DNA of 64,000 nt, taken from NCBI GenBank assembly GCA_964414895.1, contig CAYPXO010000002.1, positions 35,211 through 99,210 of the forward strand. The letters are read 5' to 3'. The position numbers and the translations under genes are program-made. The stretch is from an uncultured Pseudomonadales bacterium (GTDB lineage: Bacteria > Patescibacteriota > Microgenomatia > UBA1400 > CAYNMC01). The notes below the pieces were generated by a model. It saw only the letters and a program-made list of their open reading frames with translations. It was not told the origin of the DNA and searched no databases. Shown piece after piece: positions 960 through 62,080 of the stretch. Position 1 is the stretch's first letter; each line of letters starts with the position of its first letter.

Positions 960-1700
960 AATTCCGGGACGGGGCCAGAAATTACTAATATAGCAGTAAT
1001 TATTAGCTATATTTTTTTATCCTGTTTACAACAAAGGCTTTAGAACCAAAAGCCTCTCTACTACCTTTCCATGGATTTAAATCTGAAAGGTCTAAATCAA
1101 CTCCTGCATAAACAAACTCAATGTAATCTTTTAAAGAAAATTCTGATTTGCCTATTAATCTCTCTATTTTCTCCTCATTAACAATTTTTGATTCTTTTCT
1201 CCCCACAATCTCAGCAAAACTGGAGTATGGGTAGCTAACAGGATCAGTTACTAACTTTGCTTTTACAGGATTGAGGTGAATATAGCGAGAAAGCTGTAAA
1301 AAATAGCTCTCTTTTTGAACGAGAATACTTTTATAACGATCCTCAAAAATGGGCCCTCTTCTTTCATTCTTCTTATTGAAGTAAACTCCATAGCTGGTTA
1401 GAAGCCTACTCATTATTTTTGCTAATGGGGTTTTATTTATCTCTATCAAAAAATGAAAATGGTTTGGTAAAAGCACATAAGAATAAACAATAAAATCTAA
1501 CTCCCTGTTTAAATCTCCAAATTTATTTAAGAATTTCAAGTAGTCACCTGTAGAGATAAAAATTTTTTGCTTATTTAAACCACGATTGTAGATATGATAA
1601 AAACCACCTTGATAAGTCAACCTTCTAGCTCTAGGCATCTAAGAAGAATATAGCCTTTTTAAACTGTTATGTCAAGCTTTTCTGCCCCCGTCCCAGGTGG
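960..1700 (-). mobile_element. RAYT/IS200-like transposon unit: Y1 transposase gene flanked by inverted GC-rich repeats
   Basis: CCGGGACGGGGCC at 964-976 and GCCCCCGTCCCAGG at 1684-1697 are reverse complements of each other (12/13 match) and bracket the transposase ORF. A tandem GTCCCAGGTGGAA x2 sits at 1690-1715. The unit is inserted in the ileS-ftsZ spacer. Confidence 0.6.
1003..1638 (-). CDS. REP-associated tyrosine transposase (RAYT, TnpA_REP / IS200-like Y1 HUH transposase)
   Basis: MPRARRLTYQGGFYHIYNRG...YVLLPNHFHFLIE (HuH motif)...RRGPIFEDRYKS...YIHLNPVKA...YPYSSF. Motif order and spacing match E. coli RayT/YafM-type TnpA_REP. Confidence 0.85.
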   Translation of the reverse strand: MPRARRLTYQGGFYHIYNRGLNKQKIFISTGDYLKFLNKFGDLNRELDFIVYSYVLLPNHFHFLIEINKTPLAKIMSRLLTSYGVYFNKKNERRGPIFEDRYKSILVQKESYFLQLSRYIHLNPVKAKLVTDPVSYPYSSFAEIVGRKESKIVNEEKIERLIGKSEFSLKDYIEFVYAGVDLDLSDLNPWKGSREAFGSKAFVVNRIKKYS

Positions 1701-2902: not shown

Positions 2903-4192
2903 TCAGGGTAAGAAGGACTTTATAAATTCTATTGTTTTTGCCAACGAACCTCTTACAGGTATCCTTCTAAATATTTTACCAAAATTGTTAAAAGAAAAGG
3001 AAGACTCTCTTGAAATCATATTCCTAATTCCATAAAGAATCAAGCCGTGAGAAACAGCAAAGCGACAACCGGAAACTTCCTCCACTAGTCCAGAAAGTTT
3101 TGATAAAGAAGCAACCCTTACCGGTAAGGAAAGAGTGCCCTTGCAGGCGTCAGAAATACCAATAGTTTCTGCCCCTCCACCACAAAGGACAACACCTGCC
3201 GGTGTTGCTCCTCCAAATCCCGATCTTTTAAGCTCCTCTCCAATAAGAGAAAAAATCTCATTCAATCTGGGTCTTATTATTCCCATCACCAAAGTTTTAT
3301 AAGAAATTTTCCCTGTTTTCTCATTTATTCCTAGCTTCTGAGGGTCAATTTCATCTTTTTTCTTTTCACTTAAATCCAAAATTTCCTCTTTTTTTCTACT
3401 AGAGAGAGCAATTTTTATTTTTTCTGCTGTTTCCAGACTAACCCGCAAACCAATAGCTATATCATTGGTAATATTTTTCGCTCCAACCGGCAAAACAGAA
3501 GAATAAGCTAAAGAGTTATTCGTAAAAATAGCAATACTCGTTGTCCCCCCGCCAATGTCCACCAAACAAACACCTAATTCTTTCTCTGTTTCTGTTAAAC
3601 AAGCCTCGGCAGCCGCTAAACCGGAAAAAACCAACCCATTTATCTCCACCCCTACTTCATTAATGCACTTGGCCAAATTTCTCATTGCCGTTGATGAACC
3701 GCTTACAATATGAGCTTCTGCCTCCAGTCTAACACCGGTCATCCCCAAAGGATCTTTTATTCCTTCCTGGGAATCAAGCTTAAACTCCCGAGGAATAACA
3801 TGAACAACTTCTCTAGAAGAAGGCAAAGAAATTGCTTGAGCCGCCTCTATGACTCGGTTAACATCATTGGAAGTAATTTCCTCTTCTGGATTGGCAACGG
3901 CTACTACCCCTTTTGAGTTCTGCGAATGTACATGAGTTCCTCCAACAGAAATAAAGGCACTGGATAAAGAACAACCAGCCATCCTTTCAGTTGCCTCTAC
4001 ACAAGCCGCTATTGCTTCTATCGCCTCCTCTATATCAACTACTTGACTCTTTTTTAGCCCTTTACTTTCAAGGGAAGAAGCCCCAATAACACTAACCTTG
4101 TCTGACTCCTCAGATAAAGAAGCAATAATCGTAGCAATTTTACAACTCCCTATATCAATACCGGCTATTATTTTTGATTTATTCATTGTCAT
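2903..4192 (-). CDS. ftsA: Cell division protein FtsA (actin-like ATPase)
   Basis: N-terminal IAGIDIGS phosphate-1 motif, DIGGGTT phosphate-2 motif; located immediately upstream of ftsZ. Confidence 0.9.
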   Translation of the reverse strand: MTMNKSKIIAGIDIGSCKIATIIASLSEESDKVSVIGASSLESKGLKKSQVVDIEEAIEAIAACVEATERMAGCSLSSAFISVGGTHVHSQNSKGVVAVANPEEEITSNDVNRVIEAAQAISLPSSREVVHVIPREFKLDSQEGIKDPLGMTGVRLEAEAHIVSGSSTAMRNLAKCINEVGVEINGLVFSGLAAAEACLTETEKELGVCLVDIGGGTTSIAIFTNNSLAYSSVLPVGAKNITNDIAIGLRVSLETAEKIKIALSSRKKEEILDLSEKKKDEIDPQKLGINEKTGKISYKTLVMGIIRPRLNEIFSLIGEELKRSGFGGATPAGVVLCGGGAETIGISDACKGTLSLPVRVASLSKLSGLVEEVSGCRFAVSHGLILYGIRNMISRESSFSFNNFGKIFRRIPVRGSLAKTIEFIKSFLP

Positions 4193-7140: not shown

Positions 7141-8196
7141 TTAAATAATCGCCAACCAAATACCAAAAATGGCCAGCATAATTCCTGCCAGCCAAGTACG
7201 ACTGACAATTTTTGGCTCTTCCCAGCCAAGCAGTTGCAGCCACAAATGTAGAGGAGCTACCGGAAAGACCTTTTTCTTTCTAAACTTTTTAGACAAAAGT
7301 TGTATTAAGCTTGAAGCAACCTCAGCCACAAAAATACCACCAATTACCATTAAAGCCATCACCTTGCCTAGCAATAAAGCAACTACTGCTAGAGTAGCGC
7401 CAAAAGACAAAGAACCAACATCACCAAGCCAAACCCTAGCAGGATAAATATTAAAATAAAGAAAAGAAATCAAAGCACCCAGCCAAAGAGCCAAAAAAAT
7501 AGACAAAGGAGTGTCTAAAATCGCTGCCGATAAAAACCAAAAAACAAAAAGACAAATCATTAAAAGGCCCGAAGCCAAACCATCAAGTCCGTCAGTAATA
7601 TTAACCGCATTGGCAAAAGAAACTATCGTTAAAGCTGACAAAGGAACAAAAAACCAGCCCAGTTTTAACACCCCGTAAAAAGGAATATAAAAAATGTCAA
7701 TCTTTAAGTTTACATACAAAAGAATGCCAATAATCAAAGCCAAAATCCACTGGATTAAAAATTTATGCCTCAATCGCAACCCAAAAAAACCGGTTTGTGA
7801 AAAGCGAAAAAACTTCATTAAATCATCATAAAAACCAAGTAAAGCAAAAGAAACAAAGGTAAAAAAGATTATATTTACTTCTTCTTTAACAGAATAAATA
7901 TGAGTAGCTTCTACACCCAAAAAACTAAGAAGAGGGACCAAAAGGAAAAAGAGAATTCCTGTAGTAAAAATTATCAACAAGCCACCACCAACCGGCGTCC
8001 CTGCTTTGCCTTTGTGAAAACGGTCAAAAATAGGGGTTTTTTTTCCAAAAGCGTCTTTTGTTTTTTGCTGTTGTCTTAAAAATTTAAGCTTATACAAAAA
8101 ATCAATAAAAGGGACAATTAAAATACTGTTTACAATAAAAGAAAAAATAAGCAAACCTAATAGTAAAGCCATTGGGTTTTTCAAATCATCTGTCAT
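7141..8196 (-). CDS. mraY: Phospho-N-acetylmuramoyl-pentapeptide transferase MraY
   Basis: NAVNITDGLDGLA and DVGSLSFGA motifs; the start ATG lies inside the terminal arm of class I repeat copy A. Confidence 0.95.
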   Translation of the reverse strand: MTDDLKNPMALLLGLLIFSFIVNSILIVPFIDFLYKLKFLRQQQKTKDAFGKKTPIFDRFHKGKAGTPVGGGLLIIFTTGILFFLLVPLLSFLGVEATHIYSVKEEVNIIFFTFVSFALLGFYDDLMKFFRFSQTGFFGLRLRHKFLIQWILALIIGILLYVNLKIDIFYIPFYGVLKLGWFFVPLSALTIVSFANAVNITDGLDGLASGLLMICLFVFWFLSAAILDTPLSIFLALWLGALISFLYFNIYPARVWLGDVGSLSFGATLAVVALLLGKVMALMVIGGIFVAEVASSLIQLLSKKFRKKKVFPVAPLHLWLQLLGWEEPKIVSRTWLAGIMLAIFGIWLAII

Positions 8197-8294
8197 TCAT
8201 GGCTTACACCAGGAATCTATACGGATAAATCTATCTTTATAGATCCTGAATCCCCAGCACCATTCGGTGCGGGGCAGGCAAGTTCAGAATGACA
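8191..8294. repeat. Class I nested-palindrome (REPIN-like) element, copy A
   Basis: TGTCATTCATGG...CCAGGAATCTATAC...TATAGATCCTGAATC...GTTCAGAATGACA; fills the dgkA-mraY spacer. Confidence 0.7.
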
Positions 8295-8343: not shown

Positions 8344-8721
8344 TTACAGATTGTCTACTAAATGCGGAATGACAATCAACACTCCAACTAAGGCAGCGAA
8401 ACAAGCCAATAAAAAAACCGCTCCTGCTGCCATATTCCTTATTTGTCTTGTTTCCTTATATTCCAATTTTAATTTTTCATTTAAAAGATTGCAAATAGCC
8501 TCAATGGCAGAATTCAAAATTTCCGCTGACAAAACAAGAGCTATTAAAACAAAAACAATAAACCATTCAAAAACCTCAAAGCCCAAAATAAAACCGACCA
8601 AAATAATCCCTAAGGCAAAGCCAAGTTCTATTTTTAAATTTCTTTCTTTCTTAAATGCCTGGCAGATGCCTTCTATGGCAAAACTGAATGATTGCAGCAA
8701 ATTATATCTTTTATTTTTCAT
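8344..8721 (-). CDS. dgkA: Diacylglycerol/undecaprenol kinase (DgkA family)
   Basis: 125-aa, 3-TM protein with SFxxAxxG N-terminus and ELLNSAIE-type catalytic motif (AEILNSAIEAI). Confidence 0.75.
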   Translation of the reverse strand: MKNKRYNLLQSFSFAIEGICQAFKKERNLKIELGFALGIILVGFILGFEVFEWFIVFVLIALVLSAEILNSAIEAICNLLNEKLKLEYKETRQIRNMAAGAVFLLACFAALVGVLIVIPHLVDNL

Positions 8722-9827: not shown

Positions 9828-9962
9828 TTATTCTTCGAGCGGATCCCGAGCCTGCCTGCCGGCAGGCAGGTCTGTCAAGGGAGTAGTCGAGAAGTCTTCT
9901 CTAGTAGGGTTCTCGACTTTGCCCCGCACCGTCTGGTGCAGGGCTTCGCTCGAACAATAAAA
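9828..9962. repeat. Class II GC-rich TIR element, copy 1 (intergenic)
   Basis: TTATTCTTCGAGCG...CCTGCCTGCCGGCAGGCAGG...GTCGAGAAG/CTTCTCGAC...GCCCCGCACCgtctGGTGCAGGGC...CGCTCGAACAATAA; the ends are inverted repeats. Confidence 0.7.
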
Positions 9963-14902: not shown

Positions 14903-15778
14903 CTAAAATTCCCCTAAAAAGAAAATCTCCGGTTCGAGTTCTATCTTACAGTCCATCTTCACTTTTTTACAAACCAGCTTAATTAATTTTACAACTTGTT
15001 CGGCTTTACCTCCACCAACGTTGATAAAAAAATTAGCGTGTCTCTCACTTATTTTTACCCCTCCTATTTTCTTGCCTTTCAAACCTACTTTATCAATCAA
15101 ATAACCGGCCGATTTACCTTTAGGGTTTTTAAAAATACAGCCAGCTGATTTGCCTTTCGGCTGATTGCTTCTTTCCTTTAATGTTTCCTTTATTTTTCTC
15201 TTCAAAGTACTTTCATTCTCTTTGTTTAATTTAAAACTAGCGCTAAGAACTATCATCCCTTTTTTTCGTAAGCTCGACCAGTCATAAGAAAAATCCAAGT
15301 CCTTCTTTTTAAAAACTTTTCTTTCAAGATTTTTATTTAAAACTTCCACTTTCTCCAAACAGTCGGAAAAAAAGTGATCCTTCCAATGACTGTTATTATA
15401 AACTGCTCCACCAACTGTTCCCGGCAGGCCAGCGAAAAATTCCAAACCTCCTAAACCTCTATTCACCGTTTCTTCTACAATTCTATTCACCATCACTCCT
15501 CCTTCGCAATAGGCTTTCTCATTTTGAATTTTGAATTTTGAATTTTGAATTTTTATTACCAATCCCCTCACTCCCTTATCAGCTACCAATAAATTACTTC
15601 CCCCACCTAAAATATAAAAAGGTAATTTTTTGGCTTTTGCCCAGTTAACGGCTTTGACAATCTGCTGGCTGTTTCTAGCCTCAAAAAAATAATCGGCCGG
15701 CCCGCCAATACCAAAAGTAGTAAAAGGAGCCAAATCAATATCCTTTTTAATCTTGAATTTTAATCTTGAATTTTGCAT
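14903..15778 (-). CDS. murB: UDP-N-acetylenolpyruvoylglucosamine reductase MurB
   Basis: FAD-binding N-terminus FTTFGIGGPADYF...ILGGGSNLL; carries an in-frame (AATTTTG)4 array. Confidence 0.85.
   Translation of the reverse strand: MQNSRLKFKIKKDIDLAPFTTFGIGGPADYFFEARNSQQIVKAVNWAKAKKLPFYILGGGSNLLVADKGVRGLVIKIQNSKFKIQNEKAYCEGGVMVNRIVEETVNRGLGGLEFFAGLPGTVGGAVYNNSHWKDHFFSDCLEKVEVLNKNLERKVFKKKDLDFSYDWSSLRKKGMIVLSASFKLNKENESTLKRKIKETLKERSNQPKGKSAGCIFKNPKGKSAGYLIDKVGLKGKKIGGVKISERHANFFINVGGGKAEQVVKLIKLVCKKVKMDCKIELEPEIFFLGEF
15521..15554. repeat. Heptanucleotide tandem array (AATTTTG/CAAAATT)x4.5 inside murB
   Basis: attttgaattttgaattttgaattttgaattttt; translated in frame as KIQNSKFKIQN. Confidence 0.8.
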
Positions 15779-20287: not shown

Positions 20288-20313
20288 TGTTTGCCTGCCT
20301 GCCGGCAGGCAAA
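20288..20313. repeat. Isolated perfect GC palindrome GTTTGCCTGCCTGCCGGCAGGCAAAC (class II core) between ftsI and the Mur ligase
   Basis: 26-bp perfect hairpin sharing the GCCTGCCGGCAGGC core. Confidence 0.7.
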
Positions 20314-23125: not shown

Positions 23126-23288
23126 TCCGAAAACTCTTCCTCCCTTTAATAAAATTTCTAAAGCGTGGCCGGCACTGCCAATAGTGACATCAATGTAAAG
23201 CCAGCCAGGCTTAACACTTAGGTAACTTATTGCTTCTTTTAAAAGAGCAGGCTGATGGAACTGGCTAAAATCTTCGGAAATTATTCAT

Positions 23289-23362
23289 TGTCATTCCTGG
23301 CTCGACCAGGAATCTATACAAATAATTACTGTTATAGATTCCGCATCAAGTGCGGAATGACA
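23289..23362. repeat. Class I nested-palindrome (REPIN-like) element, copy B (mraZ-rsmH spacer)
   Basis: TGTCATTCCTGGctcgaCCAGGAATCTATACAaataattacTGTTATAGATTCCGCAtcaagTGCGGAATGACA. Confidence 0.75.
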
Positions 23363-33223: not shown

Positions 33224-34280
33224 AAACTTCCAGTGTTCTCTCGGCACATTTTCTCCAAGAATACTTCTCAGTTTGCTCTTTTCCCAACTTAATTAATTTC
33301 TCTTTTTCTTTCTTGTTCATCTTTAAAAACTTGTTTATTTTTCTGCTAATATTACCAATATCCTTAGGGTCAAAATAAAAAGCTGCTCTTCCATAAATCT
33401 CTCTAAAAACAGGAATGTTCGAACAAACCACCGGACAACCAAGACTCATCGCCTCCAACCCGGGTAAACCAAAACCTTCCATTAAAGAAGGATTGATAAA
33501 ACAAAGGGCATTTTTATAAAGAGAGACTAATTCTTTGTCCGAAGCCGCCCCATAGAATATAATTTTTTCTTCTAAATTACTCTTTTCCACTGTCTTTTTT
33601 AATCTTTCATAAAAATAATCCTCTGGCCCTACAAATAATAATTTTAAATTTTGAATTTCAATTTTGAATTTGTCATTTTTAATTTTGAATTTATTAAATG
33701 CCTCTATCAACCTCTCTAAATTTTTATGCGGATAAGCATTTCCCACATAAAGTAAGTAGCTGGTAGCTGGTAGCTGGTAGCTGGTAGCTGGCTTTCTCTT
33801 CTTGAACTTTGAATCAACTCCTTCATAAATAACAACTATTTTCTCTGGGCTAACTTTCAAACATCTAACAATCTCTTTCTTAGTTGTCTTAGAAACAGCA
33901 ATAATCTTCTCTGCCTTTCTTGCTCCAATAAAAAGAAGCATTTTATAACAAAAATGTTTTATTTTATAAAACAAGCCCGGAAGACTGCTTGCCCTTCCGG
34001 TTTTAAAACGCCAAGGAATCAAATCATGAATAGTAAGAACAAACTTGCCTGGATAAAAAAGAGGAAAAGAAAAATAAGTAAAGTGAACTAAATTAAAATT
34101 TTTTTTTAGCAACCAAAAAGGAAAGCAGACTTGCTCGGCCAAAGAATGCCAGCGAAATTTTGGCTTAATAAGAATATATTCGTTCCTCTTATTAAACCTC
34201 TTTAATTGATTAAAGAGGTTTTTGGCATATCTTCCAACACCGGTTTGATCTATTAAACGACCATCGATTGCAACTTTCAT
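33201..34280 (-). CDS. Glycosyltransferase family 4 (GT-B); carries an in-frame (TAGCTGG)5 array
   Basis: MKVAIDGRLIDQTGVGRY...EGFGLPGLEAMSLGCPVV; the upstream ORF extension to 34349 is a translation of a GC hairpin island. Confidence 0.7.
33757..33791. repeat. Heptanucleotide tandem array (TAGCTGG)x5 inside a GT4 gene
   Basis: tagctggtagctggtagctggtagctggtagctgg; encodes PATSYQLPATSY. Confidence 0.8.
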
Positions 34281-36504: not shown

Positions 36505-37965
36505 TTATCTAAAATCACATCTTCGAAGGTCAACAATTGCAAAACTCTCCTGTTCTTCCAATAATAAGCATTGCTTCTTCAAATCTTTCAGCTCCTGATC
36601 CTTCTTAACCGTTACATAAAAACTTGCTCCTTTTTTTATCCTATCTTCAATATTGCCTCCAATCGGCCAGCCTTTTCTTTCGGTTTGATATAAAAAGGCT
36701 GTGTCTCCTCCATAAGGAGCAATTACCTTATCTTCCTCCTGGCTTAGCTTTTTTACTTGTTGGCCGGCAGCCACTATTTCCGGATGATTAATATTAAAAA
36801 AGTCTCTTACTTGATACCAACCAAAAGACTCCATAAACAAAAAGCAGCCAGCAGCCAGCAGCCAGCAGCCAAGGGAACTGAATATCTTTCGTGCTTCCTT
36901 TAACAAAAATAAAACCCCTCGAGCCAGAAAAATACAAACAACTGGAATGATTAAAATCTGATAATAGTCGTGGCGAACATTGCCAGTAGCTACTACTGCT
37001 AAATAAGCCAAACAGCTCAAAAACCAAAAATGAAAAAGGTAGCTTGACTTCTGGGAAGCTTTTCTTAAAAGACCAAAAGCCAAAAAAATCACCCCCCAAT
37101 AGCCCAAAATTAATTTAGCAAGCCTTTCGGCAAATAACCAATAAAACCAAGCTCCTTTAAAACGAATCTCATCACCGTTTAAAAGCCACATATTGGCGGG
37201 AATTCCTTCAGGGAACTGCTGAATCCAAAGCCGCCAGACAGCAAAAGGCAACAACCCAATAAATAAATAAATAAATAAGCCAATAAATAAATAAAGTTTT
37301 TTCTTAGATTGAAAAAACTTTTTAATAAAAATATATAAAACCGGTGGCAATATCAAAAAAAGAGCAAACGGTTTAAGAAGTAGAGCAATTATAAAAAAAA
37401 TAGAAGAAAGAAAGAAATTGAAAATTGAAAATTGAAAATTGAAAATTGAATTTGTTCCCTTTATAAAAAAATAAACAGAACCTAAACTCGTTGCTATCAT
37501 CATCGGCTCAGGCAAAATCACTCGGTTGTAATAAATGTTGTAAGGCAGAACTGCATAAAAAAAAGCTGTTATTAAAGCAAGAGGCAAACCAGCAATTTCA
37601 CCAACAATTAAAAAAAGGAAAATTATTGTTCCTAACGAAAAGAAAATTGACAATAATCTTCCTCCCGTCTCAAAACTAACAAATGAAAAAAGCTTGAAAA
37701 AAAGGCTGTGTAAAAAGGCAAAGATGGGAAACTCCACCATCCGGTATCCTTGAGGGTTCTCTTGTCCTGAAGCAATAGTGGATAAATCATCATACTTTGG
37801 TTTTAGAAGGTCAATTTCTTGATTGACAAAATTCCTTGCCACTGCCGCCGTATCTGCTTGACGCCAAGAATGCCAATCGGCCAAAGGAGCAGTTATCCTA
37901 TAAGTCCTTAAAATAAAAGCTAAAACCAAAATCAATAAAAGAAAAGCAAATTCTTTTTTAAACAT
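36505..37965 (-). CDS. GT-C fold membrane glycosyltransferase (GT39/GT83, ArnT/PMT-like) carrying three in-frame repeat arrays
   Basis: N-terminal WRQADTAAVARNF motif region, more than 10 TM helices; contains (GAAAATT)4.5, (CAGCCAG)3.7 and CCAATAAATAAATAA x2. Confidence 0.55.
   Translation of the reverse strand: MFKKEFAFLLLILVLAFILRTYRITAPLADWHSWRQADTAAVARNFVNQEIDLLKPKYDDLSTIASGQENPQGYRMVEFPIFAFLHSLFFKLFSFVSFETGGRLLSIFFSLGTIIFLFLIVGEIAGLPLALITAFFYAVLPYNIYYNRVILPEPMMIATSLGSVYFFIKGTNSIFNFQFSIFNFFLSSIFFIIALLLKPFALFLILPPVLYIFIKKFFQSKKKLYLFIGLFIYLFIGLLPFAVWRLWIQQFPEGIPANMWLLNGDEIRFKGAWFYWLFAERLAKLILGYWGVIFLAFGLLRKASQKSSYLFHFWFLSCLAYLAVVATGNVRHDYYQILIIPVVCIFLARGVLFLLKEARKIFSSLGCWLLAAGCFLFMESFGWYQVRDFFNINHPEIVAAGQQVKKLSQEEDKVIAPYGGDTAFLYQTERKGWPIGGNIEDRIKKGASFYVTVKKDQELKDLKKQCLLLEEQESFAIVDLRRCDFR
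36844..36873. repeat. Heptanucleotide tandem array (CAGCCAG)x3.7
   Basis: cagccagcagccagcagccagcagcc; in frame (WLLAAGCWLL). Confidence 0.75.
37255..37295. repeat. Tandem duplication CCAATAAATAAATAA(ATAAG) x2 with (AAAT)n
   Basis: ccaataaataaataaataagccaataaataaataaag; encodes the duplicated LFIYLFIG. Confidence 0.7.
37414..37453. repeat. Heptanucleotide tandem array (GAAAATT)x4.5
   Basis: gaaattgaaaattgaaaattgaaaattgaaaattgaattt; encodes FNFQFSIFNF in frame. Confidence 0.85.
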
Positions 37966-39637: not shown

Positions 39638-40403
39638 TGCCTAATAGTATACCAAAAATAAAAATCCTTAGGAGAGCTCCAATCTTCAATAAAAGTTCAA
39701 GAATAACTTTTTCCCAAGAAGGTTTGTGTTTTTCAAAAAACAGCTTTAATCCCTTATATTCTGCCAAGATCGCTTTTTGAGATAAACTTCTAGGGCTTGC
39801 CTCTTTATAATGGATAATTTCCGGCTCCGGCACATAAAAAACTCGAAAGTCCTTTTTCTTGGCCCGAAAACAAAAATCGACTTCTTCGGCATACATAAAA
39901 TAGTCTTCATCAAAGCCACCAATTTCCTCCACTAATTTTCTCTTGGTTAACAAGAAGGCTCCGGTCACCCAATCAACTTTTCTCTGCTTTCTGTAAAAAC
40001 TTCTCCTCTGTTGGTGATAAGGCTTTAAAAAGAGATTAAAAACAGGCAAGTCATCTAAAAAAAACATCATATAAAAAATCTGGCGCAGTTTTGGGAAAAA
40101 ACCGGCTGATGGTTGGAGTGTCCTGTCTTTGTTTAAAAGCTTGCAACCCAAAATATCAATCTTCTCATTTTTATCTATTATTTTTACTGCCCTTTCTATT
40201 GCTTTTTCCAAAACAACTGTATCCGAGTTTAAAAAAAGAACATATTCACCCTTTGCCTTTCCAATCGCCTGATTACATGCTTTAGCAAACCCCAAATTTT
40301 TTTTGTTTCGGATAAGCCTAATATTTAAGCTTGCATATTTCTTCTTGACACTTGACACTTGACACTTGACACTATAATCCGATCCATTATCAACAACGAT
40401 CAC
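39591..40403 (-). CDS. Glycosyltransferase family 2 (GTG start per ORF track; the conserved N-terminus LTLTIIIPSFNTKEYLEDCIRSI continues in frame to 40520 without a canonical start)
   Basis: VVDNGSD...; in-frame upstream codons encode the typical GT2 IIIPSFN motif and run to a TGA lying inside the class I element end. Confidence 0.7.
   Translation of the reverse strand: MIVVDNGSDYSVKCQVSSVKKKYASLNIRLIRNKKNLGFAKACNQAIGKAKGEYVLFLNSDTVVLEKAIERAVKIIDKNEKIDILGCKLLNKDRTLQPSAGFFPKLRQIFYMMFFLDDLPVFNLFLKPYHQQRRSFYRKQRKVDWVTGAFLLTKRKLVEEIGGFDEDYFMYAEEVDFCFRAKKKDFRVFYVPEPEIIHYKEASPRSLSQKAILAEYKGLKLFFEKHKPSWEKVILELLLKIGALLRIFIFGILLGNEEKKKIYWQAFKVA
40344..40373. repeat. Heptanucleotide tandem array (GACACTT)x4
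   Basis: cttgacacttgacacttgacacttgacact; encodes SVKCQVSSVK in frame. Confidence 0.8.
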
Positions 40404-40518
40404 TTCATAATCGATCCCTTTTGTCTCTCGCCATATGGAACGAATACAGTCTTCTAGATATTCTTTAGTATTAAAACTAGGGATGATGATGGTAAGAGTT
40501 AGTTGAGAAATTCTATTT

Positions 40519-40594
40519 TGTCATTCCTGCGAAAGCAGGAATCTATAAAAATAAATATTATCTGTATAGATTCCTGATCAAATCAGGAATGACC
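40519..40594. repeat. Class I nested-palindrome (REPIN-like) element, copy C
   Basis: TGTCATTCCTGCgaaaGCAGGAATCTATAAAAataaatattatcTGTATAGATTCCTGATcaaATCAGGAATGACC. Confidence 0.75.
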
Positions 40595-41241: not shown

Positions 41242-42336
41242 TTAATTATCAGTAGTCTTCTGCAAAACCCTTATTGTCTTTTTGGCACATTTCTCCCAAG
41301 AGAATTTTTTTACTTGCTGCAAACCTTTTTTTATTAAATTATTCCTTTCCCTTTGCTTTGATTTTAACATCTTTGACAAACTTTTATAAATCGAATTATC
41401 AGAATAAGGGTTTTCAATATAAACCGCCGCCTCCCCTGCCACCTCAGGCAGGGAAGAAGTCTTGCTGGTTACAACCGGACAGCCGGCTGCCATTGCTTCA
41501 AGCACTGGTATGCCAAAGCCTTCATAGAGTGAAGGGTAAACAAAGCATAAGGCATTCTTTAATAAAGCTTGTTTTTCTTTTTCGCTGACAAAACCGGTAA
41601 AAATAACTTCTTTTTCTAAACCTAACTGTTTTACTTTATTAAATATCTCTTTGTAAAGCCAACCCTTCTTTCCAGCTATTACTAATTTAGTATTTAGGGA
41701 TAAGTATTTAGTATTTAGGGAAGCGAAAGCTTCTATAAGACGAGTGAGGTTTTTTCTGGGCTGGAGAGTGCCGAGGTAAAGAAGATAATTGCTAGCTGGT
41801 AGCTTTTTAAATTCATTCTTTATTCTTGATTCTTTATTCTTGATTCTTTTACTTAGTCCCGGATAAGTAACGGTAATTTTCTCCTCCGGATAATCATAAA
41901 AATGGATAATCTCCTTTTTAGTAAACTCTGAGATGGTAAAAATATGAGCCGCTTTTTTAATTGAATACCTTGTCCAGTTTTTTAGCTGCCAAAGATCGCT
42001 CTTTTTAAACTGCTCAGGAAAACGCCAGAAAGCTAAATCCATAATAGAAATCACCCTTGGGCAAGAAGAAAACCGAGGAGCATAATGACCCGGAGTAAAA
42101 AATAAATCCGGTTTAGGCCGCAAAAAGAATAATTCCAAAGGCAGCCGCCACTGCGTCCACCATAACCCCGGCCGCAAAACCTTATATCGCCACCAACCTG
42201 TCTCTTTAGGTAAATCATCTAAAAGTTTATCTTTCAAAAAAATTTTGAATTTTAAACTGCAATCCTGCCTGCCGGCAGGCAAGGTTTTAATTTTTAATTT
42301 TTCATTTTTAATTTGTCTATATATTTCCCACAACAA
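41242..42336 (-). CDS. Glycosyltransferase family 4, paralog a (tandem duplicate of 42515-43693)
   Basis: C-terminal half identical to paralog b (YLLYLGTLQPRKNL...EGFGIPVLEAMAAGCPVVTSKTSSLPEVAGEAAV). Confidence 0.75.
   Translation of the reverse strand: MLWEIYRQIKNEKLKIKTLPAGRQDCSLKFKIFLKDKLLDDLPKETGWWRYKVLRPGLWWTQWRLPLELFFLRPKPDLFFTPGHYAPRFSSCPRVISIMDLAFWRFPEQFKKSDLWQLKNWTRYSIKKAAHIFTISEFTKKEIIHFYDYPEEKITVTYPGLSKRIKNKESRIKNEFKKLPASNYLLYLGTLQPRKNLTRLIEAFASLNTKYLSLNTKLVIAGKKGWLYKEIFNKVKQLGLEKEVIFTGFVSEKEKQALLKNALCFVYPSLYEGFGIPVLEAMAAGCPVVTSKTSSLPEVAGEAAVYIENPYSDNSIYKSLSKMLKSKQRERNNLIKKGLQQVKKFSWEKCAKKTIRVLQKTTDN
41682..41721. repeat. 21-bp tandem duplication TAAGTATTTAGTATTTAGGGA x1.9
   Basis: Encodes the duplicated KYLSLNT in the GT4-a interdomain linker. 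Confidence 0.75.
41814..41848. repeat. Heptanucleotide tandem array (ATTCTTK)x5
   Basis: attctttattcttgattctttattcttgattcttt; encodes RIKNKESRIKNE. Confidence 0.75.
42263..42283. repeat. Class II core palindrome CCTGCCTGCCGGCAGGCAAGG inserted in frame near the GT4-a N-terminus
   Basis: Encodes LPAGRQDCS; paralog b has NCNA at the homologous position. Confidence 0.7.
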
Positions 42337-42416
42337 CTCATAAGAATAAACATTACTACCTACTCTTTCTTTTATATTCGCTTCGTTACCGTCAATGGCA
42401 ATAAAAATAGTAGTTA

Positions 42417-42449
42417 GTAGTTAGTAGTTAGTAGTTAGGGATCCTCTGT
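42417..42449. repeat. Heptanucleotide tandem array (TAGTAGT)x4.5, intergenic, abutting class I half-element D
   Basis: tagtagttagtagttagtagttagtagttaggg. Confidence 0.8.
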
Positions 42450-42455
42450 CATTCC

Positions 42456-42496
42456 TGGCTCCGACCAGGAATCTATACAAATAAATCTTATTACTT
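42456..42496. repeat. Class I half element (solo REP-like hairpin), copy D
   Basis: TGTCATTCCTGGctccgaCCAGGAATCTATACAAATAAATC with no right half. Confidence 0.65.
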
Positions 42497-42514: not shown

Positions 42515-43693
42515 TCAACTACCTACTTCCTCATAAACTTTTAGTGTTTCCCTTGCACATTTTTCCCAAGAGAATTTTTTTACTTGCTGCAAACCTTTTT
42601 TTCTTAGATTGCTTTGCAACCGTTTACTTCCCAAAACTTTTTTAATTGCTAAACCAATTTCATCGACCTTCTGCGGATTAACTAAAACCGCCGCCTCCCC
42701 TGCCACCTCAGGCAGAGAAGAAGTCTTGCTGGTTACAACCGGACAGCCGGCTGCCATTGCTTCAAGCACTGGTATGCCAAAGCCTTCATAGAGTGAAGGG
42801 TAAACAAAGCATAAGGCATTCTTTAATAAAGCTTGTTTTTCTTTTTCGCTGACAAAACCGGTAAAAATAACTTCTTTTTCCAAACCTAACTCTTTTACTT
42901 TATTAAATATCTCTTTGTAAAGCCAACCTTTCTTTCCAGCCATTACTAATTTTAGATCTTCAAGTTTTTTTGTTTTTGAGTTTGTGTTTTTGGTTTTTGG
43001 TTTTTGGTTTTTAACATTGGCAAATGCTTTGACTAGCCTAATGAGGTTCTTCCTAGGCTGGAGGGTGCCTAAATAGAGTAAGTAATTGTTGCTAATATTA
43101 TATTTTTTCTTAATAGCTTTAAGCTTTGCGCTGTGGCTTTGCGCTTTGAGCTTTGCGCTTTGAGTTTTTCCTAAATATACTATCCTGATTCTTTCTTCAC
43201 TGAAACCCAACAAACTAACCAAATCATCTTTAGTCGCCTTTGAGTCGGCTATTACTAAATCAGACTCCTCTTTTACCCAGTAAAGCCGCCTTTTCTGCGT
43301 TTTGATAATCTTTTTAGGAAAAGTTTCCGGAAAGTGCAAAAAAGACAAATCATGAACTGTAGTTACTTTTTTTGCCCTTGTTGGCGGTTGTATCCAATCC
43401 GAGGAATGAAAAATGTCAACTCTTCCAATCAACCTCTCAACTTCTAAAAGATGTAGCTTATTCCATAGAAATTCTAGAGGCGTCGGAGGAATAGGAAAAA
43501 TTTTAAATTTTGCATTGCAGTTTTTAATTTTACATTTTAAATTTTGAATTTTCTCTCTTTGCCTTAAAGAATAACCCAAAAAAATATACTCGTTCTTTTT
43601 ATCAATTCTTAAAAGATTATCTACCAGCTTTTCAGTATAACGGCTAACGCCTGTCTGGTAAACTATTTGACTAATATCAATCCCTATTTTCAT
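42515..43693 (-). CDS. Glycosyltransferase family 4, paralog b
   Basis: MKIGIDISQIVYQTGVSRY...; the linker is encoded by repeat arrays (TTTTTGG and GCTTTGCGCTTTGAG). Confidence 0.75.
   Translation of the reverse strand: MKIGIDISQIVYQTGVSRYTEKLVDNLLRIDKKNEYIFLGYSLRQREKIQNLKCKIKNCNAKFKIFPIPPTPLEFLWNKLHLLEVERLIGRVDIFHSSDWIQPPTRAKKVTTVHDLSFLHFPETFPKKIIKTQKRRLYWVKEESDLVIADSKATKDDLVSLLGFSEERIRIVYLGKTQSAKLKAQSHSAKLKAIKKKYNISNNYLLYLGTLQPRKNLIRLVKAFANVKNQKPKTKNTNSKTKKLEDLKLVMAGKKGWLYKEIFNKVKELGLEKEVIFTGFVSEKEKQALLKNALCFVYPSLYEGFGIPVLEAMAAGCPVVTSKTSSLPEVAGEAAVLVNPQKVDEIGLAIKKVLGSKRLQSNLRKKGLQQVKKFSWEKCARETLKVYEEVGS
42966..43012. repeat. Degenerate heptanucleotide array (TTTTTGG)n
   Basis: tttttgtttttgagtttgtgtttttggtttttggtttttggttttt; encodes KNQKPKTKNTNSKTKK. 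Confidence 0.7.
43116..43166. repeat. About 15-bp tandem array GCTTTGCGCTTTGAG x3
   Basis: Encodes SAKLKAQSHSAKLKA. Confidence 0.7.
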
Positions 43694-43775: not shown

Positions 43776-44546
43776 TTATTTAATTCTCCCTTCTATTTTA
43801 ACAAAAAATATCTGCCGATAATAAGGCGGCTTATCCCAAAGCTTAAAAAAAGGAATCAAAAACAAAAAAATCTTTCTAAATAAAAAATCAACAAAAATAT
43901 TTTTTGTCATCCAACCCTTCATTAAAAAATTTCTCAAGCCTAAATTTTCATTACCCTGAATTTTAATTCCGACTTTCTTTTTTTCTCTTTTTGCTGCTAA
44001 TTTAATTAATTGAACTATTTCTTCTTTCTTTGGCAAACCATATTCCAAATGCTCTTTAAAAAAAGAAAAAGGCTGCTTAAAAACCTGTTGGTATCTTTTA
44101 TCTAATTTTTTATCTTGAATAAAACTTTTCTTTCCACAAGGAACAGCTATAAAAACCTCTCTTTTTGCCACCCGTAGAACTTCTCTTATCGCTTTTTCCC
44201 TTTTTGTCTTCTGCAAGTGTTCCAGAACATCAACACAAACAACAAAATCAAAACTATCTCTTTTAAAGGGTAGCTTTAAAACGCTTCCCTTTATCTGCTT
44301 TAACAAACCAAACTTCCTTCCTTCAAAATCCTCATCCAAACCAACAACCTCTTTTCCTAAATAAGGAGCAATCCCCAGCCACCCCGACCCCACTTCAAGA
44401 ATAGAAATTTCTTTGACACTTGACACTTGACACTTGACACTTCTTGCTATCGGCCAGTATCTAATCGCTACTTCTGGATGCCAACGAAAAAAATTGAAAA
44501 TTGAAAATTGAAAATTGAAAATTTTATTTACGATACTCATAAACAA
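43776..44546 (-). CDS. Class I SAM-dependent methyltransferase (type 11-like)
   Basis: ILEVGSGWLGIAPYLG motif I, DFVVCVDVLEHL motif; the N-terminus carries the (GAAAATT)4.5 and (GACACTT)4 arrays. Confidence 0.6.
   Translation of the reverse strand: MFMSIVNKIFNFQFSIFNFFRWHPEVAIRYWPIARSVKCQVSSVKEISILEVGSGWLGIAPYLGKEVVGLDEDFEGRKFGLLKQIKGSVLKLPFKRDSFDFVVCVDVLEHLQKTKREKAIREVLRVAKREVFIAVPCGKKSFIQDKKLDKRYQQVFKQPFSFFKEHLEYGLPKKEEIVQLIKLAAKREKKKVGIKIQGNENLGLRNFLMKGWMTKNIFVDFLFRKIFLFLIPFFKLWDKPPYYRQIFFVKIEGRIK
44413..44442. repeat. Heptanucleotide tandem array (GACACTT)x4
   Basis: ttgacacttgacacttgacacttgacactt. Confidence 0.8.
44487..44525. repeat. Heptanucleotide tandem array (GAAAATT)x4.5
   Basis: aaaattgaaaattgaaaattgaaaattgaaaatttt. 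Confidence 0.85.
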
Positions 44547-46011: not shown

Positions 46012-46065
46012 AACTTCTCGACTTCGCCCCGCACCGAATGGTGCAGGCTTCGCTCGAAGAATAAG
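45946..46065. repeat. Class II GC-rich TIR element, copy 4
   Basis: TTATTGTTCGAGC...CTTCTCGACTTC-GCCCCGCACCgaatGGTGCAGGC-TTCGCTCGAAGAATAAG. Confidence 0.7.
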
Positions 46066-54751: not shown

Positions 54752-54854
54752 TGTCATTCTCGACCTGAAAGCGAAAGCGCTTCAAGATCGGGAATCTATA
54801 AAAATATTAAAGCTGAATTATTTGTATAGATTCTGAATCAAGTTCAGAATGACA
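54752..54854. repeat. Class I nested-palindrome (REPIN-like) element, copy E
   Basis: TGTCATTCTCGACC...GGGAATCTATAAAAATATTAAAGCTGAATTATTTGTATAGATTCTGAATCAAGTTCAGAATGACA. Confidence 0.75.
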
Positions 54855-60180: not shown

Positions 60181-60291
60181 CGTCATTCTGAGTCCCACAT
60201 TTTGCGGGACGAAGAATCCCCTTCGGAATTATTCAGACTTCTAGGGAGATCCTTCGCTCCGCTCAGGATGACATAGAATTTCAGAATGACA
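60181..60291. repeat. Class I-family element, copy F (variant internal hairpins)
   Basis: CGTCATTCTGAGtcccacattttGCGGGACGAAGAATCCCCttcgg...CTCAGGATGACAtagaatttCAGAATGACA; overlaps the stop of 60241-61896. Confidence 0.65.
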
Positions 60292-61982: not shown

Positions 61983-62080
61983 TGTCATCCTGGGAGATCA
62001 GGCACAGCCTGAAACTGATAGGATCTCTTGAGAGATCCTATCGTTCCTCCGCCAGCTGGCGAACTCACTCCAGAATGACA
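61983..62080. repeat. Class I-family element, copy G (variant internal hairpins)
   Basis: TGTCATCCTGGGAG...AGGATCTCTtgagAGAGATCCT...GCCAGCTGGC...CTCCAGAATGACA. Confidence 0.65.

What the first reader, a model, noticed from the sequence alone, without database searches (positions are those of the whole stretch)
8191..8294. Class I REPIN-like nested-palindrome family, 7 copies, mostly placed exactly at gene boundaries
Copies sit at 8191, 23289, 40519, 42456 (half element), 54752, 60181 and 61983. Each has terminal arms TGTCATTCYKG / CMGRATGACA. Within the most conserved copies (A-E) each half is itself a hairpin (GTCATTCC-loop-GGAATC) around a central TATACA..TGTATA palindrome, which is the architecture of REP doublets (REPINs). 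Hairpin arms differ between copies by compensatory changes, which implies selection on the fold. The window also holds an RAYT gene, although its own flanking repeats (GGCCCCGTCCCGG) are of a different sequence.
Basis: partly seen in the sequence, partly recalled or inferred. Interest (0 to 1): 0.6.

Follow-up and report, generated by a model that had tools for sequence, protein, structure and literature searches.

The report
Paired Ssn-type hairpin repeats (CGTC REPs)
The repeats are real, but they are back-to-back pairs of a short DNA hairpin motif already known from Neisseria and many other bacteria (dRS3/NTS, "CGTC REPs"), which is linked to a small single-strand DNA nuclease (Ssn) and not to the RAYT transposase; finding them in a Patescibacterium widens their host range but is not a new kind of element.

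Summary
The window carries four canonical nested-palindrome dimers (A, B, C, E), one solo unit (D), one degenerate solo unit and two diverged dimers (F, G). All are intergenic and far above chance.

Each half is a tagged hairpin, [T/C]GTC-ATTCC-stem-loop-stem-GGAAT-C-TATA. This is the CGTC/TGTC-tagged REP of Di Nocera 2013 (Neisseria dRS3 = CGTC-1) and the NTS/"Ssn-related motif" of Chenal 2025. The pairs have their tags outward (HH dimers), which is the usual arrangement for CGTC REPs.

A pattern scan found the same dimer in more than 83 genome stretches. These come from many Patescibacteria classes, Proteobacteria, Bacteroidota isolates and others. A covariance model built only from those foreign units finds seven window units at E ≤ 2e-5.

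The linked protein is a ~90-aa GIY-YIG nuclease (Ssn), not the RAYT:
- In 80 metagenome loci fetched by Ssn-like proteins, 46 have such units within 150 nt, with tags outward.
- RAYT homologues are rare near the dimers and never adjacent to them.
- The window RAYT-like gene has unrelated flanking repeats.

No ssn gene lies in these 64 kb.

Verdict: a real feature and a new host clade for a known family. The REP-doublet reading is right; the RAYT link is wrong.

The parts
8191..8294 (.). Dimer A, tags outward. Left unit 8191-8221(+), centre CTATA..TATAG 8217-8242, right unit 8238-8294(-). The CTTGA loop of the right unit carries a 27-nt GC-rich hairpin insert at 8252-8278.
   Evidence: left unit E = 2.2e-5; fold z -4.95. 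The predicted ATG of the mraY-like gene (8194-8196, minus strand) lies inside the left tag.
8344..8377 (-). Degenerate solo unit GATTGTCATTCCGCATTTAGTAGACAATCTGTAA. It overlaps the last codons and the TAA stop of the dgkA-like gene.
   Evidence: 14.3 bits, E = 0.2. It is within 1 substitution of the published SRM pattern. Weak; listed as a probable remnant.
23289..23362 (.). Dimer B, the canonical copy. Left unit 23289-23318(+), stem CCTGG/CCAGG, loop CTCGA. Spacer CAAATAATTACTGT. Right unit 23333-23362(-), stem CCGCA/TGCGG, loop CTTGA.
   Evidence: E = 4e-11 and 1e-12; z -6.05. It lies 12 nt after the mraZ stop. It is absent from the mraZ-mraW junction of relatives L085 and L086.
40519..40594 (.). 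Dimer C. Left unit 40519-40547(+) with a 4-nt GAAA loop. Right unit 40565-40594(-) with a TTTGA loop and tag GGTC.
   Evidence: E = 2e-6 and 2.4e-10; z -7.97. It lies 7 nt after the hexapeptide-transferase stop.
42447..42477 (+). Solo unit D, TGTCATTCCTGGCTCCGACCAGGAATCTATA, followed by a spacer-like CAAATAAATCTTATT.
   Evidence: (E = 4.2e-8). It lies 37 nt after a GT1 stop.
54752..54854 (.). Dimer E. Left unit 54752-54800(+) with an enlarged 24-nt loop. Right unit 54825-54854(-), TGAA/TTCA stem, CTTGA loop.
   Evidence: right unit E = 2.7e-13, left unit E = 0.049; z -5.82. The same-strain short-read contig ends here.
60181..60291 (.). Diverged dimer F. The CGTCATTCT left unit has a nested GTCCC..GGGAC hairpin in its loop. 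The right end is AGGATGACA, followed by an 18-nt tandem duplicate that ends in CAGAATGACA.
   Evidence: (z -2.73, weak). Not detected by model R1, so membership rests on the tags and stem feet only.
61983..62080 (.). Diverged dimer G. Tags TGTCATCC / GAATGACA, both loops enlarged, centre AGGATCTCTTGAGAGATCCT (62020-62039).
   Evidence: (z -5.46). Not detected by R1.

Best explanation
Identity. The elements are tags-outward (HH) dimers, plus one or two solo units, of the CGTC/TGTC-tagged REP family. This family is also called dRS3/NTS or 'Ssn-related motif' (SRM). The host is a Patescibacteria (Microgenomates-like) genome.

Anatomy of one unit: a 5' tag [T/C]GTC, an 8-bp stem that begins ATTCC, a 4-5-nt loop, the return stem ending GGAAT, an obligatory C, and a short tail (TATA here). 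Two units face each other across an AT-rich spacer with consensus around AAATAATTAT. Either DNA strand, once single-stranded, therefore shows one correctly oriented hairpin.

Most likely mechanism (inferred from the Neisseria and Wolbachia work, not shown in this genome). The hairpin is bound as ssDNA by a ~90-aa single-domain GIY-YIG nuclease (Ssn). Ssn cuts a few nucleotides 5' of the tag, which for a dimer is just outside each end. In Neisseria this restricts incoming transforming ssDNA.

Likely origin (inferred). The SRM-ssn-SRM gene unit has the same tags-outward geometry. The dimers therefore look like ssn-less miniatures of that unit and were probably spread by it.

What is shown and what is inferred. 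Shown here: family membership of the units, the cross-phylum distribution, the Ssn association for this exact unit model, the shared orientation, and the gain of copy B relative to relatives. Inferred: that this genome encodes an Ssn, that Ssn cuts these sites, and that Ssn or an Ssn-dependent process copies them.
For: 1. Sequence match to the published motifs. NTS is CGTCATTCCCGCGMAVGCGGGAATCYRG (PMC11893778). Window unit B-right is TGTCATTCCGCACTTGATGCGGAATCTAT. The positions that mutagenesis found critical are present: GTC before the palindrome and C after it.

2. Match to the CGTC-REP definition (PMC3733652). TGTC variants are allowed, stems are 8-9 bp starting with A-T and T-A, loops are 4-5 nt, there is a short tail, and HH dimers with conserved spacers predominate.

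3. Distribution. These come from many Patescibacteria classes, Gamma-, Delta- and Alphaproteobacteria, Bacteroidota isolates (Christiangramia, Nubsella), Omnitrophota and others. Of the 173 units extracted from these loci and the window together, 50 match the strict published SRM pattern; all 50 are from the foreign loci, since the window has no strict match.

4. Independent model. Model R1, built only from non-window units, finds 7 window units at E from 2.7e-13 to 2.2e-5.

5. Ssn association in the dimer loci. Single-domain GIY-YIG ORFs of 87-114 aa (Pfam PF01541) occur in 7 of the 83 loci. They directly abut units in L004, L056 and L064.

6. Ssn association tested the other way. In 80 metagenome loci fetched by Ssn-like protein, R1 hits lie within 150 nt of the gene in 46 loci and on both sides in 12. 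Of 85 hits, 66 fall in the 7.6% of bases near the gene. Orientation is tags-outward: upstream hits are + in 28 and - in 6; downstream hits are - in 27 and + in 5.

7. Gain of copy B. MraZ relatives at 73% and 81% identity have mraW abutting or overlapping mraZ, with no unit.

8. Short-read contigs of the same strain end at elements A and E, as expected for multi-copy repeats.
Against: - No GIY-YIG/ssn gene lies in the 64-kb window, by regex, tblastn and hmmsearch. The rest of the genome could not be read.
- The strict published SRM pattern gives 0 hits in the window. Window units are 1-2 substitutions away, because their stems are 8 bp and more AT-rich, and the pattern is not specific at that tolerance.
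- F and G are not recognised by the model, so their membership is by anatomy only.
- No target-site duplication or clean empty site is available. The mraZ-mraW comparison is between diverged genomes, and about 41 extra nt accompany the dimer.
- No experiment anywhere has shown that Ssn copies or moves SRMs.
- Many of the foreign hits are MAGs, whose binning could be wrong. Two isolates and the published Neisseria, Wolbachia and Rickettsia cases do not depend on binning.
Confidence: 0.75

Rival explanations
1. True REPINs. The doublets are mobilised in trans by the RAYT-like Y1 transposase encoded at 1003-1638.
For: The inverted-doublet architecture is present. A RAYT-like ORF is present: Pfam Y1_Tnp E = 6e-9 and NCBIfam REP_Tyr_transpos 77.7 bits against a cut-off of 80. 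A RAYT homologue occurs in 2 of the 83 dimer loci.
Against: The RAYT gene's flanking repeats (GGCCCCGTCCCGG) are unrelated to the units. The tag is TGTC/CGTC, not GTAG. Published surveys find no RAYT association for CGTC REPs. The two RAYT hits lie kilobases from the dimers, while ssn-like genes abut them.
Confidence: 0.06
2. An ordinary MITE. A deletion derivative of a DDE-type insertion sequence whose terminal inverted repeats are TGTCATTCC...GGAATGACA.
For: The ends are TG...CA-type inverted repeats. The size is 74-110 bp. The location is intergenic. Short-read contigs break at the elements.
Against: No target-site duplication is visible at any copy. Solo units exist that have one 'end' plus its own hairpin. 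The conserved part is a hairpin with covarying stem, not a linear end sequence. The same unit is conserved across phyla and flanks a nuclease gene with no transposase domain.
Confidence: 0.04
3. The elements act mainly at the RNA level, as 3'-UTR or inter-cistronic hairpins that stabilise or punctuate operon transcripts. The DNA-level nuclease link is irrelevant in this organism.
For: Five of seven copies lie 7-51 nt after a stop codon inside co-directional gene arrays. The hairpins are strong. Di Nocera 2013 proposes RNA roles for many REPs.
Against: There is no U-tract or terminator-like signature and no Rfam match, even at E <= 1. The dimers are strand-symmetric. SsnA does not bind RNA. This reading does not explain the cross-phylum conservation of the unpaired GTC tag and of the C after the stem. 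It is not exclusive of the main explanation.
Confidence: 0.1

Closest known systems
NTS / Ssn-related motifs (SRM) and the Ssn GIY-YIG ssDNA nucleases (Chenal et al. 2025, PMC11893778)
   Same: - The tag-stem-loop-stem-C layout is the same: [C/T]GTC ATTCC... ...GGAAT C.
- The critical nucleotides are the same.
- The family, modelled from the window's relatives, clusters tags-outward around small GIY-YIG genes.
- The units are intergenic and clustered near envelope and glycosyltransferase genes.
   Different: - The window stems are 8 bp and AT-richer, so the strict SRM pattern does not match.
- The tail is CTATA rather than CYRG.
- Units are organised almost entirely as dimers with a conserved AT-rich spacer.
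- The host is a Patescibacterium, a group absent from the RefSeq-based survey. The paper never mentions Patescibacteria or Candidatus taxa.
- No ssn gene is seen in the 64 kb.
CGTC-tagged REPs, families CGTC-1 to CGTC-4 (Di Nocera et al. 2013, PMC3733652). Includes Neisseria dRS3 and Rickettsia RPE-4 and RPE-6.
   Same: TGTC is an accepted tag variant. Stems are 8-9 bp starting A-T, T-A. Both 4-nt (GAAA-type) and 5-nt (CTTGA-type) loops occur. There is a short tail. HH dimers predominate, many as heterodimers, with conserved spacers.
   Different: The published tail consensus is CCA; here it is CTA(TA). The published hosts were five phyla, mostly Alphaproteobacteria. Several units here carry 20-30-nt GC-rich hairpins nested in the loop.
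REPIN-RAYT systems (Bertels & Rainey) and E. coli REP/BIME with TnpA-REP
   Same: Inverted doublets of a tagged hairpin. There is a single-copy gene flanked by the same hairpins. The dimers look like the gene-less form.
   Different: The tag is different (GTAG for RAYT-associated REPs). The enzyme fold is different (HUH Y1 transposase against GIY-YIG nuclease). REPIN sequences are lineage-specific, whereas this unit is conserved across phyla.

Membership tests
CGTC-tagged REP (Di Nocera 2013) | Unpaired CGTC (or TGTC/CCTC) tag at one end of the palindrome | tested here: met
   The tag is TGTC in 11 of the unit ends, CGTC in F-left and GGTC in C-right.
CGTC-tagged REP (Di Nocera 2013) | Stem of 8-9 bp with A-T and T-A at positions 1 and 2, and a loop of 4-5 nt | tested here: met
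   The stem is ATTCC + 3 bp. Loops are GAAA, CTCGA, CTTGA, TTTGA and CTCCGA in units B, C, D and E-right. A-right, E-left, F and G have enlarged loops.
CGTC-tagged REP (Di Nocera 2013) | Short unpaired tail (consensus CCA) and predominance of tags-outward HH dimers with conserved spacers | tested here: met
   The tail is C-TA(TA). Six dimers against one or two solo units. The spacer motif AAATAATTAT recurs across genomes. The tail sequence differs from CCA at one position.
NTS/SRM, the Ssn-related motif (Chenal 2025) | Match to the published degenerate pattern HGTCWYN(0-2)YYVSBRHN(0-5)WNVSBRGN(0-2)RNCYNB | tested here: not met
   There are 0 exact matches in the window. Three units are within 1 substitution and more are within 2, but the pattern is unspecific at that tolerance. 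All 50 of the 173 extracted units that match exactly come from the other genomes.
NTS/SRM, the Ssn-related motif (Chenal 2025) | The nucleotides shown by mutagenesis to matter: three nt 5' of the palindrome (GTC) for cleavage and the C right after the palindrome for binding | tested here: met
   GTC and the post-stem C are invariant in all canonical window units and in alignments A1, A2 and A4. In those alignments they were fixed by the extraction pattern. R1 scoring is independent of the window.
NTS/SRM, the Ssn-related motif (Chenal 2025) | Physical association with a cd10448-type single-domain GIY-YIG gene (ssn) | tested here: inconclusive
   There is none in the 64-kb window. At family level the feature is met: 7 of 83 dimer loci, and 46 of 80 ssn-like loci have R1 units within 150 nt. 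The cd10448 assignment itself could not be tested; only Pfam GIY-YIG and protein size were checked.
NTS/SRM, the Ssn-related motif (Chenal 2025) | Bound and cut as ssDNA, not dsDNA or RNA, by the cognate Ssn | not testable with these tools
   A biochemical assay is required.
REPIN (RAYT-mobilised REP doublet) | The RAYT gene is flanked by the same REP sequence that forms the doublets | tested here: not met
   The RAYT-like ORF 1003-1638 is flanked by GGCCCCGTCCCGG-type inverted 13-mers. No TGTCATTCC unit lies within 5 kb.
REPIN (RAYT-mobilised REP doublet) | Two REPs in inverted orientation that form a long hairpin | tested here: met
REPIN (RAYT-mobilised REP doublet) | A lineage-specific sequence population whose size tracks RAYT presence | tested here: not met
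   The same dimer is found across phyla. RAYT homologues occur in only 2 of 83 loci. Genome-wide copy number against RAYT presence could not be tested.

The most novel reading that the evidence does not exclude
The tags-outward dimers are non-autonomous copies of an SRM-ssn-SRM unit. That would make them a REPIN-like replicator driven by a GIY-YIG single-strand nuclease instead of a Y1 transposase. In this reading the replicator is active in Patescibacteria, moves between phyla, and can land inside gene starts, as at mraW. Its hairpin loops would in turn serve as landing sites for a second layer of GC-rich mini-hairpins (the CTTG|CCTGCCC... junction seen in four genomes).
Probability: 0.3. Interest if true: 0.6.

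Novelty: new member of a known kind. Interest (0 to 1): 0.3.

Why it matters
The finding places the Ssn/SRM (dRS3-type) repeat system in Patescibacteria. These are very small-genome episymbionts thought to depend on DNA uptake, and RefSeq-based surveys did not cover them.

It shows that one particular dimer form, CTATA-spacer-TATAG, is shared almost unchanged by very distant phyla.

It adds orientation evidence: the dimers copy the geometry of the SRM-ssn-SRM gene unit. That bears on the open question of how these repeats multiply.

For annotation, it warns that a RAYT gene in the neighbourhood does not identify the repeats around it.

Tried and rejected
- Strict SRM pattern on the window: 0 hits. 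A fuzzy version is too unspecific to use.
- The idea that the ATG inside the tag (GAATGAC) regularly supplies start codons was rejected. Only 16 of 292 tags open an ORF of 80 codons or more, against 16.5% of all ATGs.
- Rfam at gathering threshold and at E <= 1: nothing at the elements.
- Terminator scan around C and D: nothing at the elements.
- Viral contigs: 0 matches to the dimer pattern, so there is no sign of a phage vector.
- Attempts to reach the rest of the source genome failed. The 100%-identical MraZ (P0001, NCBI, 108-kb contig) is not retrievable and has no name. The hexapeptide-transferase look-up found nothing.
- The combined alignment A3 put its gap inside the stem and was not used. 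Model R1 was built from the 5-nt-loop units only (A4).
- The seven-protein alignment A5 was too diverse for the locus search. The three-protein alignment A6 was used instead, so that test covers one Ssn subclade only.
- GAATGACA at 718-725 and the pattern match at 3734-3780 lie inside genes, are not found by R1, and are treated as chance.
Full report
THE OBSERVATION

The seven reported sites were read directly.
The half element starts at 42447, not 42456.
- The terminal motif is far above chance: 19 hits against 2.7 expected for TGTCATTCYKG with up to 1 mismatch, and 12 against 1.3 for GAATGACA.
- All eight GGAATCTATA sites fall inside copies A-E.

Copies A, B, C and E share one layout: TGTCATTCC-stem-loop-stem-GGAATCTATA, an AT-rich spacer of 14-24 nt, then TATAGATYC-stem-loop-stem-GRATGACA.
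- D is one complete left unit plus spacer.
- F and G keep the tags and the first stem pairs but have enlarged loops, and G has a different centre.
- As single-stranded DNA the elements fold with z-scores of -4 to -8. F is weak at -2.7.
- The inner stems differ between copies in a compensatory way: CTGG/CCAG, CTGC/GCAG, CGCA/TGCG, CTGA/TCAG and TGAA/TTCA.

HOST AND CONTEXT

The window has about 36% GC. It carries a dcw cluster (ftsZ, ftsA, mraY, mraW, mraZ) and a long run of glycosyltransferase genes, nearly all on the minus strand. The best named MraZ relatives are Microgenomates/Patescibacteria.

All elements are intergenic:
- A lies 49 nt after a dgkA-like stop and overlaps the predicted mraY ATG.
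- B lies 12 nt after the mraZ stop.
- C lies 7 nt after a hexapeptide-transferase stop.
- D lies 37 nt after a GT1 stop.
- E lies 51 nt after a GT2 stop.
- F overlaps the last 17 codons of a DUF2142 gene and ends 13 nt before the next ATG.
- G lies in a divergent region.

Short-read contigs of the same strain (Logan SRR14802572) end inside A and at E but run through the diverged F. This is what multi-copy repeats do to assemblies.

THE FAMILY IS NOT LINEAGE-SPECIFIC

I scanned one representative genome per species for GTCATTC-N(6-36)-GGAATCTATA-N(4-34)-TATAGATYC. This pattern has 26 specified bases, so I estimated about 0.25 chance matches in the collection.
- About half the hits are Patescibacteria of many classes: Roizman-, Davies-, Woese-, Shapiro-, Blackburn-, Collier-, Gottesman-, Beckwith-, Sacchari-, Peri- and Berkelbacteria.
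- The rest include Gamma-, Delta- and Alphaproteobacteria, Omnitrophota, Planctomycetia, Ignavibacteriales and two cultured Bacteroidota (Christiangramia sabulilitoris and Nubsella zeaxanthinifaciens).
- The extracted sequences show the same tags, the same two hairpin types and a recurring spacer motif around AAATAATTAT. The hairpin types are a 4-nt GAAA-like loop and a 5-nt CTTGA-like loop.
- Without any pairing filter, the four inner stem positions are 93-96% paired for 4-nt-loop units, with CG, TA, GC and AT all used. For 5-nt-loop units the outer two inner pairs are 96% paired and the middle two about 65%.
- On 38 non-window units the covariation score is 0.505 against 0.167 for shuffles. 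Sliding the partner column destroys the signal. Those rows had been pre-selected for at least 3 inner pairs.

WHAT IT IS

The consensus recalled Neisseria dRS3, so I searched the literature.

Di Nocera et al. 2013 (PMC3733652) define CGTC-tagged REPs.
- The tag is CGTC, often TGTC.
- Stems are 8-9 bp starting with A-T and T-A, loops are 4-5 nt, and there is a 3-nt tail.
- They are mostly organised as HH dimers, meaning tags outside, often as heterodimers with conserved spacers.
- dRS3 is family CGTC-1.
- They 'apparently lack a dedicated transposase', whereas RAYTs go with GTAG REPs.

Chenal et al. 2025 (PMC11893778) redefine the oriented form as NTS, CGTCATTCCCGCGMAVGCGGGAATCYRG, and generalise it as Ssn-related motifs.
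- A 94-aa single-domain GIY-YIG nuclease, SsnA, binds the hairpin as ssDNA only and cuts a few nucleotides upstream.
- The GTC before the palindrome matters for cutting, and the C after it matters for binding.
- ssn genes are typically flanked by the motif.

Every window unit has this anatomy. The strict published pattern does not match the window, because the window stems are 8 bp and carry T where the pattern demands A, C or G. Window units are 1-2 substitutions away. Among the 173 units extracted from the foreign loci and the window, 50 match the pattern exactly, all of them foreign, so the series is continuous.

MEMBERSHIP TESTED INDEPENDENTLY OF THE WINDOW

A covariance model (R1) was built from 38 units of other genomes only. 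With filters off it finds seven full units in the window at E from 2.7e-13 to 2.2e-5. It also finds E-left at E = 0.049 and a degenerate solo unit at 8344-8377 at E = 0.2. Nothing else is convincing. A-right, F and G are missed because of their loop insertions.

WHICH PROTEIN GOES WITH THE UNITS

The window has no GIY-YIG gene.

In the 83 dimer loci (563 kb):
- tblastn finds small GIY-YIG ORFs in seven (L004, L037, L052, L053, L056, L064, L076). All are Pfam PF01541 and 87-114 aa.
- Three of them directly abut units.
- Homologues of the window's RAYT-like protein occur in two loci, kilobases from the dimers.

Going the other way, 80 metagenome loci were fetched with an alignment of three Ssn-like proteins and scanned with R1.
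- 46 loci have a unit within 150 nt of the gene, and 12 have one on both sides.
- 66 of the 85 hits fall in the 7.6% of bases near the gene.
- Upstream units are on the + strand in 28 cases and on the - strand in 6. Downstream units are on the - strand in 27 cases and on the + strand in 5.

That is the tags-outward geometry of the window dimers, with the gene in place of the spacer.

The window's RAYT-like ORF is real: Pfam Y1_Tnp and NCBIfam REP_Tyr_transpos at 77.7 bits against a cut-off of 80. It is flanked by unrelated inverted 13-mers.

EVIDENCE OF GAIN

In two relatives, with MraZ 73% and 81% identical, the mraZ stop is followed within 7 nt by the conserved H-x-P-A-L-L start region of mraW. 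In L085 the mraW TTG start lies inside mraZ. In the window the same TTG context is present. However, dimer B plus about 41 nt lies between it and the H-Q-P-A-L-L motif. No units occur in the relatives' dcw regions. The genomes are too diverged to define the insertion junction.

HOW IT MOST LIKELY WORKS

Shown:
- The units belong to the CGTC-REP/SRM family.
- That family, as modelled here, surrounds ssn-like genes in tags-outward orientation.
- The dimers are intergenic, multi-copy and at least once gained.

Inferred:
- This genome encodes an Ssn.
- When either strand is single-stranded (during replication, repair or DNA uptake), the forward-oriented unit folds, is bound, and the strand is cut just outside the dimer.
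- Dimers arise as gene-less versions of SRM-ssn-SRM.

In Neisseria the outcome is restriction of incoming transforming ssDNA. Whether the same holds in a Patescibacterium is unknown.

RIVALS

- The RAYT/REPIN reading fails its defining test, because the RAYT gene's flanks are unrelated.
- An ordinary MITE reading lacks target duplications and does not explain covarying hairpins or the cross-phylum unit.
- An RNA-level role is possible but has no specific support here: no terminator features and no Rfam match. It would not explain conservation of the unpaired tag.
- The pattern is absent from 2.9 million viral contigs.

NOVELTY AND SCORE

The element type is known (2013 and 2025). What is new is modest:
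- the host clade; no paper in the searchable library links REPs and Patescibacteria;
- the CTATA-spacer-TATAG dimer form shared across phyla;
- the orientation parallel with the ssn gene unit;
- nested GC-rich hairpins in the loops.

I rate it as a new member of a known kind, with interest 0.3.

Noticed in passing
window 8252-8278; also 9922-9939 and 46027-46044; loci L022, L002, L027: A 27-nt GC-rich hairpin (CCTG-CCCCGCACC-GAAT-GGTGCTGGGG) sits exactly between CTTG and A of the CTTGA loop of unit A-right. Its core recurs as a stand-alone repeat at two other intergenic sites. The same junction, CTTG|CCTGCCC...GGG, with different hairpin sequences, is seen in unit loops of a Woesebacteria MAG and another Patescibacteria MAG. 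It could be a second-layer insertion or an inherited long-loop subfamily; this is undecided.
   Followed up: partly
window 9852-9870, 20293-20310, 42264-42280, 58618-58650: There is another GC-rich palindrome family, CCTGCCTGCCGGCAGGCAGG, in this 36% GC genome. Near-identical sequence occurs inside unit loops in L041, L032 and L045.
   Followed up: no
window 23126-23290 (mraW 5' end) and 40404-40520 (GT2 5' end), minus strand: Both genes downstream of dimers B and C have no in-frame ATG, GTG or TTG ahead of their conserved N-terminal motifs. Removing one base from a T4 run (mraW) or an A4 run (GT2) would join them to an ATG next to, or inside, the GAATGACA tag. This could be an assembly homopolymer error, a non-canonical start, or a real consequence of insertion.
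   Followed up: partly
window, about 20 sites, e.g. 15521-15553, 33756-33791, 37415-37450, 40344-40373, 42408-42438, 44413-44442, 60503-60536: There are many perfect heptanucleotide tandem arrays (4-8 copies, different units). Some lie inside or at the 5' ends of glycosyltransferase ORFs. Since 7 is not a multiple of 3, copy-number change would shift the frame, so they may be phase-variation switches.
   Followed up: no
window 60263-60298: The right end of dimer F carries an 18-nt tandem duplication, TCAGRATGACATRRAATT x2. That is the tag plus about 7 nt of flank, copied once.
   Followed up: no
window 964-976, 1684-1696, 1690-1715: The RAYT-like gene (1003-1638, minus strand) is bracketed by inverted 13-mers GGCCCCGTCCCGG / GCCCCCGTCCCAG. 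Upstream of it is a 13-nt direct repeat, GTCCCAGGTGGAA x2. The nested hairpin in the F-left loop (GTCCCA...CGGGACG) shares 6-7 nt with these arms, which may be chance.
   Followed up: no
window 41421-41688 and 42685-42952: Two adjacent GT1 glycosyltransferase paralogues share a 268-nt block at 98% identity. This suggests recent tandem duplication or gene conversion next to solo unit D.
   Followed up: no
L155 1746-3816: One metagenome contig carries an array of about 20 same-strand SRM units around its ssn-like gene. It resembles the large clusters described for Neisseria and Wolbachia.
   Followed up: no
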